From assembly GCF_003334765.1 (NCBI RefSeq), contig NZ_QOWT01000109.1: DNA of 676 nucleotides. One strand, written 5' to 3'. The notes below the pieces were generated by a model. The model ran no database searches. It saw only the letters and a program-made list of their open reading frames with translations, and was not told the origin of the DNA. The stretch is from Escherichia coli. Its GTDB lineage: Bacteria > Pseudomonadota > Gammaproteobacteria > Enterobacterales > Enterobacteriaceae. The position numbers were made by a program, and so were the translations under genes. Shown here one piece after another: positions 1 to 676 of the stretch (its first letter is position 1; each line of letters starts with the position of its first letter).

Positions 1-133
1 ACTTCCGTCCCAGCCTTGCCAGATGTTGTCTCAGATTCAGATTATGTCGCTCAATGCGCTGAGTGTAACGCTTGCTGATAACGTGCAGCTTTCCCTTCAG
101 GCGTGATTCATACAGCGGCCAGCCATCCGTCAT
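1..133 (-). pseudogene. insB: Remainder of the insB reading frame downstream of the premature TAG (C-terminal InsB-homologous region, continuing off-window)
   Basis: In the same frame immediately after the TAG, codons 133..2 translate to [44 protein letters not shown]. This is collinear with the C-terminal region of canonical InsB and has no further stops up to the window edge. Confidence 0.75.
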
Positions 134-427
134 CTATACCACGACCTCAAAGGCCGACAGCAGGCTCAGAAGACGTTCCAGTGTGGCCAGAGTGCGTTCA
201 CCGAAGACGTGCGCCACAACCGTCCTCCGTATCCTGTCATACGCGTAAAACAGCCAGCGCTGACGTGATTTAGCACCGACGTAGCCCCACTGTTCGTCCA
301 TTTCAGCGCAGACAATCACATCACTGCCCGGTTGTATGCGCGAGGTTACCGACTGCGGCCTGAGTTTTTTAAGTGACGTAAAACCGTGTTGAGGCCAACG
401 CCCATAATGCGTGCACTGGCGCGACAT
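134..427 (-). CDS. insB: IS1 InsB (insB' frame), N-terminal 97 codons only, ended by a premature in-frame TAG
   Basis: The ORF-track translation ...[58 protein letters not shown]...[10 protein letters not shown]...[11 protein letters not shown] matches IS1 InsB over its N-terminal part. It is in the -1 frame relative to insA, as expected for InsAB' frameshifting. It stops at TAG (134..136) where the canonical protein, as I recall it, continues ...[12 protein letters not shown]... Confidence 0.8.
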
Positions 428-621
428 CCGACGCCATTCATGGCCATATCAATGATTTTCTGGTGCGTACCGGGCTGAGAGGCGGTGTAAGTGAACTGTA
501 GTTGCCATGTTTTACGGCAATGAGAGCAGAGATAGCGCTGATGTCCGGCAGTGCTTTTGCCGTTACGCACCACGCCTTCAGTAGCGGAGCAGGAAGGACA
601 TCTGATGGAAATGGAAGCCAC
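346..621 (-). CDS. insA: IS1 InsA, the transposition inhibitor / IR-binding repressor and N-terminal part of the InsAB' transposase
   Basis: A 91-aa ORF with a GTG start at 621..619 and a TAA stop at 348..346. Its translation [91 protein letters not shown] matches IS1 InsA, including the CxxC...CxxC zinc-finger-like motif (CPSC ... CSHC). An AAGG Shine-Dalgarno-like motif sits upstream at 632..629. Confidence 0.9.
364..370 (-). promoter_or_regulatory. A6C (AAAAAAC) programmed -1 ribosomal frameshift motif at the insA/insB' overlap
   Basis: The minus strand reads CAC TTA AAA AAC TCA GGC in the insA frame (H L K N S...), while the insB' frame reads CTT AAA AAA CTC (L K K L...). This is the known IS1 slippery site that produces the InsAB' fusion, and it is intact here. 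Confidence 0.8.
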
Positions 622-628
622 GCAAGCA

Positions 629-647
629 CCTTAAAATCACCATCATA
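629..647 (-). promoter_or_regulatory. insA translation-initiation region with candidate promoter -10 inside or adjacent to the IRL
   Basis: On the minus strand, AAGG (632..629) lies about 8 nt upstream of the GTG start and is a plausible RBS. TATGAT (647..642) is a -10-like hexamer. The IS1 insA promoter is known to overlap the IRL, but the exact -35 cannot be assigned confidently from sequence alone. Confidence 0.35.
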
Positions 648-653
648 CACTAA

Positions 654-676
654 ATCAGTAAGTTGGCAGCATTACC
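654..676 (-). repeat. IS1 left terminal inverted repeat (IRL), about 23 bp, with one mismatch to the canonical IRL as recalled (GGTAATG versus GGTGATG)
   Basis: The minus-strand sequence at 676..654 is GGTAATGCTGCCAACTTACTGAT. The canonical IS1 end as I recall it is GGTGATGCTGCCAACTTACTGAT. The partner IRR is not in the window, so the inverted-repeat pairing cannot be confirmed directly. Confidence 0.8.

What the first reader, a model, noticed from the sequence alone, without database searches (positions are those of the whole stretch)
1..676. Divergent IS1 isoform rather than a canonical IS1 copy
Against the IS1 reference I recall, this copy carries many substitutions along its length. These include a mismatch at IRL position 4 and amino-acid differences in InsA (for example SISIRC versus SVSISC near the N-terminus) and InsB (N-terminus MSRQCT versus MPGNSP; RIRR versus SLRK). 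Most nucleotide changes appear synonymous, which implies a long independent history under purifying selection before the nonsense change. It could correspond to a known divergent isoform class, but I cannot confirm that without a search.
Basis: partly seen in the sequence, partly recalled or inferred. Interest (0 to 1): 0.35.

Follow-up and report, generated by a model that had tools for sequence, protein, structure and literature searches.

The report
Known IS1F isoform, transposase-dead copy
The window is an ordinary, already catalogued variant (IS1F) of the common bacterial jumping gene IS1, carrying the same inactivating stop codon as the copy in E. coli K-12 and found in more than half of complete E. 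coli genomes.

Summary
The minus strand of the window is the first 676 of 768 bases of an IS1 element. It differs from canonical IS1A at 67 positions (90.1% identity), including IRL position 4.

The interpretation also holds. dN/dS against IS1A is about 0.08 in both genes. Downstream of the stop codon there are 12 synonymous and 0 nonsynonymous changes.

The isoform is not new. It is IS1F, the "type IV" IS1 of E. coli K-12. The window is 99.6% identical to the K-12 copy, whose insB7 is annotated as a pseudogene, and shares its TAG at InsB codon 98. The window is 100% identical to chromosomal copies in many E. coli genomes. The TAG allele occurs in 3109 of 5426 complete genomes, usually once. 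An intact Shigella boydii plasmid copy differs by only two bases.

One correction is needed. The InsB "N-terminus" difference (MSRQCT versus MPGNSP) lies upstream of the A6C frameshift site. It is mostly a by-product of changes that are synonymous in insA.

The element cannot make transposase. One identical copy is flanked by an 8-bp target duplication, and published K-12 experiments show mobilisation in trans.

Verdict: already known, low interest.

The parts
1..676 (-). Partial IS1F-type insertion sequence: bases 1-676 of a 768-bp element. The last 92 bases, including IRR and the insB stop, lie outside the window.
   Evidence: Gapless alignment to K-12 IS1F (3 differences), IS1A (67 differences) and identical full-length copies L001 and L003.
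654..676 (-). Left terminal inverted repeat (IRL), about 23 bp. Window position 673 is the isoform-diagnostic A at IRL position 4, where IS1A has G.
   Evidence: In identical full-length copies IRL and IRR match at 20 of 23 positions, against 18 of 23 in IS1A. This agrees with PMC12903888.
642..669 (-). Sigma-70-like promoter match (CTGCCA-16-TATGAT) inside and next to IRL, placed to drive insA.
   Evidence: Consensus scan only. The position fits the known IRL-embedded IS1 promoter (established knowledge, not tested here).
346..621 (-). insA, intact, 91 aa with a GTG start. It has a zinc ribbon and an HTH domain and encodes a repressor that binds the inverted repeats.
   Evidence: ORF list. 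Pfam Zn_ribbon_InsA at 2.7e-19 and HTH_Tnp_IS1 at 2.9e-27. dN/dS against IS1A is 0.088. The protein is identical to InsA of the intact S. boydii copy.
364..370 (-). A6C (AAAAAAC) programmed -1 ribosomal frameshift motif, which fuses insA to insB' to give the InsAB' transposase.
   Evidence: The sequence TTAAAAAACTC is invariant among all aligned IS1 copies. RefSeq notes 'programmed frameshift'. The mechanism comes from the literature (PMC12428005).
137..427 (-). insB reading frame up to the premature stop (97 codons). Only the part downstream of the frameshift site (window 137 to about 364) would be translated, as part of a truncated InsAB' of about 162 aa.
   Evidence: ORF list. NCBIfam NF033558 covers profile positions 1-153 of 199 in the truncated fusion.
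134..136 (-). TAG nonsense codon at InsB codon 98, where intact IS1 has TGG (Trp). The same mutation is present in K-12 IS1F.
   Evidence: The TAG 55-mer is found in 3109 of 5426 complete E. coli genomes.
1..133 (-). insB remnant downstream of the stop. It still reads as an undamaged DDE_Tnp_IS1 domain ([10 protein letters not shown]...RIERHN...).
   Evidence: 12 synonymous and 0 nonsynonymous differences against IS1A. Matches NF033558 profile positions 156-199. Pfam DDE_Tnp_IS1 at 8.2e-57 across the stop.
176..176 (-). Sub-allele marker: the synonymous change GAG to GAA in InsB codon E84 (element position 501). It separates the window's sub-lineage from K-12 IS1F and from the intact Shigella copy.
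   Evidence: The exact 90-mer carrying both this base and the TAG is found in 627 E. coli records.

Best explanation
The window is the left 676 bases, read on the minus strand, of an IS1F-type copy of insertion sequence IS1. IS1F is a long-known isoform about 10% diverged from canonical IS1A/IS1R.

The copy keeps:
- the IRL;
- an intact insA (repressor and IR-binding protein);
- the A6C -1 frameshift signal;
- an otherwise undamaged insB' frame.

A single G-to-A change turns Trp98 of InsB into TAG. This truncates InsAB' just before the second Asp and the Glu of the predicted DDE triad. The copy therefore cannot make its own transposase. It is a non-autonomous element that can still be moved in trans by InsAB' from intact IS1 copies, and can be altered by recombination with them.

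The divergence from IS1A accumulated while the lineage was an active transposon under purifying selection. The nonsense change is recent by comparison. It has been carried to high frequency in E. coli mostly by vertical or island-linked inheritance, in particular next to the fec island and in the mdtM-brnTA-yjiA region.
For: Identity with IS1F:
- 3 differences in 676 against K-12 IS1F, including the shared TAG, and 67 against IS1A.
- K-12 annotation: 'insertion sequence:IS1F', insB7 pseudogene.
- RefSeq: 'IS1-like element IS1F family transposase; programmed frameshift; internal stop' on a 100% identical copy.
- The literature gives 73 mismatches and 90.5% for IS1F against IS1A (PMC12428005, PMC12903888), which I reproduced.

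Family membership:
- Pfam Zn_ribbon_InsA, HTH_Tnp_IS1 and DDE_Tnp_IS1.
- NCBIfam NF033558 at 173.6 bits, above the cut-off of 100.

Purifying selection before a recent stop:
- dN/dS is 0.088 for insA and 0.078 for insB, with 12 synonymous and 0 nonsynonymous changes after the stop.
- The intact S. boydii pSB4_227 copy differs by only 2 bases, one synonymous plus the nonsense change.
- The TGG version of the IS1F-type 55-mer matches exactly in at least 4276 records.

Prevalence:
- The TAG allele is in 3109 of 5426 genomes, median one copy, with 4248 of 4285 places chromosomal.

Movement despite the stop:
- A 100% identical copy between gcl and hyi is flanked by the 8-bp direct repeat GAGAAACG.
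- TAG copies occur at five or more distinct loci.
- In K-12, IS1F does not move on its own. It gave 44% of 48 sequenced insertions when InsAB' was overexpressed in a strain retaining only the four non-consensus IS1 copies (PMC12903888).
Against: - The window lacks the last 92 bases and any flanking DNA. The IRR, any target-site duplication and the genomic location of this particular copy cannot be seen.
- Placing the DDE residues relative to the stop rests on my recollection of Ohta et al. 2002, which could not be opened, and on the Pfam domain span. I have no residue-level test.
- In a strain with an amber suppressor the TAG could be read through, restoring some activity.
- The spread of the TAG allele between loci could owe partly to gene conversion rather than transposition. 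Mosaic copies exist.
Confidence: 0.95

Rival explanations
1. It is a canonical IS1A/IS1R copy, and the apparent differences come from the reader's faulty memory of the reference or from sequencing errors.
For: None beyond the general unreliability of a recalled reference.
Against: Direct alignment to K-12 IS1A shows 67 differences in 676 bases. All of them are shared with independent complete genomes that match the window at 100%.
Confidence: 0.01
2. It is a previously undescribed IS1 isoform.
For: It is not base-for-base identical to the K-12 IS1F reference: there are 3 differences, at element positions 156, 210 and 501.
Against: 99.56% identity is far inside any isoform threshold. Identical copies are annotated IS1F family in RefSeq. 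The exact sub-allele is present in about 627 complete E. coli records. Two of the three differences are positions where the K-12 copy, not the window, has departed from the intact relatives.
Confidence: 0.02
3. The TAG-bearing IS1F is retained because it is useful to the host. On this reading it is an InsA-only locus supplying repressor in trans to restrain other IS1 copies, rather than a decaying, passively inherited pseudo-element.
For: insA is intact and identical to that of active Shigella copies. The allele is in 57% of complete E. coli genomes, usually as a single chromosomal copy at conserved sites. InsA is a known repressor of IS1 transposition (PMC12428005).
Against: Linkage explains the prevalence without selection on the IS itself: most sampled copies sit beside the fec island or in the mdtM-yjiA variable region. 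The K-12 copy has picked up two nonsynonymous InsA changes (H34P in the zinc-ribbon region, T52K), and other copies carry frameshifts (L014). That pattern suggests decay, not conservation.
Confidence: 0.08

Closest known systems
IS1F of E. coli K-12 MG1655 (NC_000913.3 4518472-4519239; insA7 b4294, insB7 b4576 pseudogene). This is the 'type IV' IS1 of Umeda & Ohtsubo 1991, as cited in PMC12428005 and PMC12903888.
   Same: 99.56% identity over 676 bases. It has the same IRL with A at position 4, the same TAG at InsB codon 98, the same A6C site, and the same roughly 10% divergence from IS1A.
   Different: There are three single-base differences. At element positions 156 and 210 the K-12 copy carries InsA H34P and T52K, while the window keeps the residues found in intact relatives. 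At position 501 the window has a private synonymous A. The genomic locus of the window copy is unknown. Identical copies lie at mdtM-brnTA-yjiA and gcl-hyi, not next to fecI.
Intact IS1F-clade IS1 of Shigella, for example S. boydii Sb227 plasmid pSB4_227, transposase WP_094106546.1. From memory, not verified here, this probably corresponds to the iso-IS1 elements of S. dysenteriae described by Ohtsubo and colleagues in 1981.
   Same: 99.7% identity (2 of 676 differences) and an identical InsA protein.
   Different: The Shigella copy has TGG at codon 98 and an uninterrupted 232-aa InsAB' by conceptual frameshifting. It is multi-copy on plasmids and looks like the autonomous parent type.
Canonical IS1A/IS1E (equivalent to IS1R-type) of E. 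coli K-12.
   Same: The same 768-bp architecture: IRL, insA, A6C frameshift, insB' and the same three Pfam domains. The alignment is gapless.
   Different: 67 of 676 substitutions (90.1% identity): 5 amino-acid changes in InsA and 9 in the translated part of InsB, plus the nonsense codon. IRL position 4 is G in IS1A. IS1A is autonomous and mobile (PMC12428005).

Membership tests
IS1 family insertion sequence | Element of about 768 bp bounded by imperfect terminal inverted repeats of about 23 bp | tested here: met
   The IRL is present at window 654-676. The IRR is outside the window. Full-length copies that are 100% identical over the window (L001, L003) are 768 bp, with IRL and IRR matching at 20 of 23 positions.
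IS1 family insertion sequence | Two overlapping ORFs, insA and insB', joined by -1 programmed frameshifting at an A6C motif | tested here: met
   insA lies at 346-621 (-). The insB frame overlaps it in the -1 frame. AAAAAAC lies at 364-370 (-). That frameshifting actually occurs is taken from the literature and RefSeq notes, not tested here.
IS1 family insertion sequence | Transposase with an InsA zinc ribbon, an HTH domain and a DDE_Tnp_IS1 catalytic domain | tested here: met
   Pfam PF03811 at 2.7e-19, PF12759 at 2.9e-27 and PF03400 at 8.2e-57, on the conceptual fusion with X at the stop. NCBIfam NF033558 at 173.6 bits against a cut-off of 100.
IS1 family insertion sequence | Target-site duplication of 8-9 bp on insertion | tested here: inconclusive
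   This cannot be seen in the window, which has no flanks. An identical copy at gcl-hyi (L003) has the 8-bp repeat GAGAAACG. The mdtM-brnT and K-12 fec copies have none, which fits adjacent rearrangement.
IS1F isoform | Near-identity to the IS1F reference, above the usual ISfinder isoform threshold of about 95% nucleotide identity (threshold quoted from memory) | tested here: met
   673 of 676 bases match, 99.56%, against K-12 IS1F.
IS1F isoform | About 90% identity to IS1A/E (73 mismatches in 768), with the distinct IRL | tested here: met
   67 of 676 differences against IS1A. K-12 IS1F against IS1A gives 73 of 768, 90.49%. IRL position 4 is A. Matches PMC12428005 and PMC12903888.
Autonomous (transposase-proficient) IS | Uninterrupted InsAB' reading frame | tested here: not met
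   TAG at InsB codon 98 (window 134-136). RefSeq flags identical copies as pseudogenes with an 'internal stop'.

The most novel reading that the evidence does not exclude
The transposase-dead IS1F allele, found in 57% of complete E. coli genomes, may not be just a hitch-hiking pseudogene. It could be a maintained InsA-only repressor locus that dampens IS1 activity. Alternatively, it could be an unusually successful non-autonomous parasite of intact IS1, favoured by its better-matched inverted repeats.
Probability: 0.1. Interest if true: 0.35.

Novelty: already known. Interest (0 to 1): 0.07.

Why it matters
It matters little beyond correct annotation. The stretch should be labelled as a partial IS1F-type IS1 with an internal stop, that is, a non-autonomous pseudogene copy, not as a new isoform or an active transposase.

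The one mildly useful point is population-level. The same nonsense allele is shared by K-12 and by more than half of complete E. coli genomes, it sits at several loci, and at least one copy has a clean target-site duplication. This is natural evidence for the trans-mobilisation of IS1F recently shown experimentally in K-12.

Tried and rejected
- **Rfam.** A scan of the window at E <= 1 gave no RNA family, so there is no evidence for a structured RNA beyond the known frameshift site.
- **Terminators.** The scan found none.
- **DDE residues.** I tried to read Ohta et al. 2002 (PMC151954) to confirm the DDE residue positions, but the paper is not held. The DDE placement therefore stays an inference.
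- **Shigella iso-IS1 literature.** A search for 'iso-IS1' to link IS1F with the S. dysenteriae iso-IS1 elements returned nothing usable. That link is marked as memory only.
- **Sequencing error or canonical IS1.** Considered and rejected.
- **InsB N-terminal differences as real protein divergence.** Considered and rejected. They lie upstream of the frameshift site, and most of the underlying nucleotide changes are synonymous in insA.
- **Searches not run.** I did not use the large metagenome, genome-collection or protein-database searches. The E. coli, plasmid and phage collections already gave exact matches.

Full report
**What is in the window**

Read on the minus strand, the 676 bases begin exactly at an IS1 left end (GGTAATGCTGCCAACTTACTG...). 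They contain the following features:
- a 91-aa GTG-initiated insA ORF at window 346-621;
- the AAAAAAC frameshift motif at window 364-370;
- an overlapping insB-frame ORF at window 134-427, which stops at a TAG after 97 codons.

Downstream of the TAG the same frame stays open to the window edge. A conceptual InsAB' fusion, with X at the stop, matches three Pfam families: Zn_ribbon_InsA (2.7e-19), HTH_Tnp_IS1 (2.9e-27) and DDE_Tnp_IS1 (8.2e-57). The truncated fusion scores 173.6 bits on NCBIfam NF033558 'IS1 family transposase', above the cut-off of 100. The window therefore holds bases 1-676 of a 768-bp IS1. The IRR and the last 92 bases are missing.

**Checking the observation**

I fetched IS1A and IS1F from E. 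coli K-12 MG1655 and aligned them with the window. The alignment has no gaps.

Against IS1A there are 67 differences in 676 bases, or 90.09% identity.
- IRL position 4 is A rather than G.
- InsA has V4I and S7R (SISIRC versus SVSISC), plus D15E, T69S and I80V.
- InsB has S65R, L66I and K68R (RIRR versus SLRK).
- The insB ORF begins MSRQCT rather than MPGNSP.
- W98 is replaced by a stop.

Nei-Gojobori counts:

| Region | Synonymous differences | Nonsynonymous differences | dN/dS |
|---|---|---|---|
| insA | 16.5 | 5.5 | 0.088 |
| insB beyond the overlap | 29 | 9 | 0.078 |
| insB downstream of the TAG | 12 | 0 | 0 |

The claim that most changes are synonymous, and the inference of purifying selection before the nonsense change, are both supported quantitatively.

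**One correction to the reading**

The striking 'InsB N-terminus' difference lies at element positions 253-265. This is inside the insA/insB overlap and upstream of the A6C site. Of the seven nucleotide changes there, five are synonymous in the insA frame and two produce T69S; one more overlap change at position 293 (I80V in InsA, D15G in InsB) lies further downstream.

The functional transposase is InsAB', made by a -1 frameshift at A6C (PMC12428005, and RefSeq's 'programmed frameshift' notes). This part of the insB ORF is therefore not part of it. The difference is a side-effect of insA third-position changes, not divergence of a real protein terminus.

**What it is**

The window differs from the K-12 element annotated 'insertion sequence:IS1F' at only 3 of 676 positions, and it shares the TAG. 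In K-12 the corresponding gene, insB7 (b4576), is annotated as a pseudogene.

Other annotation agrees. RefSeq labels a 100% identical copy 'IS1-like element IS1F family transposase; programmed frameshift; internal stop'. A phage record labels a 99.6% match 'IS1 family IS1F'.

Two recent papers summarise the classification, citing Umeda & Ohtsubo 1991. K-12 carries four IS1 types, and IS1F is type IV, with 73 mismatches and 90.5% identity to the IS1A/E 'consensus' (PMC12428005, PMC12903888). My own count for K-12 IS1F against IS1A is 73 of 768, or 90.49%.

**How common it is**

- The whole window matches at 100% in many complete E. coli chromosomes.
- A 55-mer centred on the TAG can seed a megablast hit only if the TAG base is present. 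It is found in 3109 of 5426 complete genomes, with a median of one copy. 4248 of 4285 places are chromosomal.
- The same 55-mer with TGG matches exactly in at least 4276 records, often in many copies. Intact members of the IS1F clade are therefore abundant.
- The exact sub-allele of the window, carrying both the synonymous A at element position 501 and the TAG, is in 627 records.
- On plasmids the closest matches are intact Shigella copies at 99.7%.
- The S. boydii pSB4_227 copy differs from the window only at position 501 (synonymous) and at the nonsense base. Its conceptual InsAB' is uninterrupted at 232 aa, and its InsA is identical to the window's.
- The K-12 reference has two additional nonsynonymous InsA changes (H34P, T52K) that the window lacks. 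The window is thus closer to the active ancestor than the K-12 'type' copy is.

**Where the allele sits**

| Locus | Copies sampled |
|---|---|
| Beside fecI/ykiE at the edge of the fec island | K-12 and five of six 'spread' samples |
| Next to virK, with the same right flank as the fec copies | L011 |
| Between mdtM and brnTA-yjiA (exact window allele) | five samples |
| Between gcl and hyi (exact window allele) | L003 |
| Between a truncated HD-domain gene and a truncated hchA | L018 |

The gcl-hyi copy is flanked by a perfect 8-bp direct repeat, GAGAAACG, which is the signature of IS1 insertion. A copy that cannot encode transposase has therefore transposed. This fits the K-12 experiments. 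There IS1F is immobile alone but accounts for 44% of insertions (of 48 sequenced) when InsAB' is overexpressed in a strain that retains only the four non-consensus IS1 copies. The authors suggest this may be because its IRL and IRR match better (PMC12903888). I confirm 20 of 23 matches against 18 of 23 in IS1A.

Recombination also contributes. L009 is an intact mosaic, IS1A-type for roughly the first 250 bases and IS1F-type thereafter. L018 is a TAG-bearing IS1F backbone with an IS1A-type patch at element positions 293-372.

**Mechanism, and how much of it is shown**

Shown here:
- the element's architecture;
- the intact insA;
- the premature stop;
- the absence of post-stop decay;
- the two-base distance to an intact relative;
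- the multi-locus distribution, with one target-site duplication.

Taken from the literature:
- InsA represses and binds the inverted repeats;
- InsAB' arises by a -1 frameshift;
- IS1F is mobilised in trans.

Inferred:
- The stop removes the second Asp (in MTDGW) and the Glu (in RIERHN) of the DDE triad. This rests on my recollection of Ohta et al. 2002, which could not be opened. It is consistent with the Pfam DDE_Tnp_IS1 domain spanning the stop.
- The high frequency of the allele reflects linkage to the fec island and to the mdtM-yjiA region, rather than selection on the IS itself.

**Other checks**

No Rfam family matches the window. A sigma-70-like site at 669-642 (-) lies in and next to the IRL, where the IS1 promoter is known to be. 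This is a consensus match only.

**Verdict**

The object is a well-known, catalogued and extremely common IS1 isoform in its usual transposase-dead form. The finding is already known and of low interest.

Noticed in passing
L003 3001-3768 (NZ_CP030919.1, gcl-hyi intergenic region): A copy 100% identical to the window, with the same TAG, is flanked by a perfect 8-bp direct repeat, GAGAAACG. A transposase-dead IS1F has therefore undergone a genuine transposition in nature, presumably helped in trans.
   Followed up: partly
L001, L002, L004, L016, L017 (mdtM - IS1 - brnT/brnA - yjiA): In several unrelated strains the exact window allele sits between mdtM and yjiA. From my own knowledge, not checked with the tools here, this is where K-12 has the hsd/mcr/mrr 'immigration control region'. 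The copy lies next to a dienelactone-hydrolase gene fragment and a BrnT/BrnA toxin-antitoxin pair, and has no target-site duplication. This suggests an old IS1-associated replacement or deletion at this hypervariable locus.
   Followed up: no
L009 987-1754 (NZ_CP025913.1, next to mutS) and L018 2022-2789 (NZ_AP040249.1): These are mosaic IS1 elements. L009 is intact and is IS1A-type for about the first 250 bases, then IS1F-type. L018 is a TAG-bearing IS1F backbone with an IS1A-type patch at element positions 293-372. Together they show recombination or gene conversion between isoforms.
   Followed up: partly
L007 987-1754 (E. coli O157:H7 PV15-279): This IS1F-type copy has TGG at codon 98 but an independent nonsense change, GAA to TAA at InsB codon 45. 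It also carries the two K-12-type InsA changes. It is a second, separate inactivation within the IS1F clade.
   Followed up: partly
window 1 and window 676 (the window edges): One edge is exactly the IS1 terminus. The other stops one base before element position 677, where otherwise identical copies differ (C in L001, T in L003 and K-12). The window looks like a repeat-collapsed assembly unitig, so it may stand for more than one genomic copy. This is an inference.
   Followed up: no
L006 973-1740 (K-12 IS1F) compared with the window: The K-12 reference IS1F carries two nonsynonymous InsA changes, H34P in the zinc-ribbon region and T52K. Neither is present in the window or in the intact Shigella copies. 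The 'type' IS1F is therefore more decayed than the window copy.
   Followed up: partly
L010, L012-L015 (fecIR - ykiE - IS1F): Five of six evenly sampled TAG-bearing copies sit at the same junction beside fecI/ykiE, followed by IS3 and IS5 fragments. The allele's 57% prevalence is probably largely due to linkage with the fec island.
   Followed up: partly
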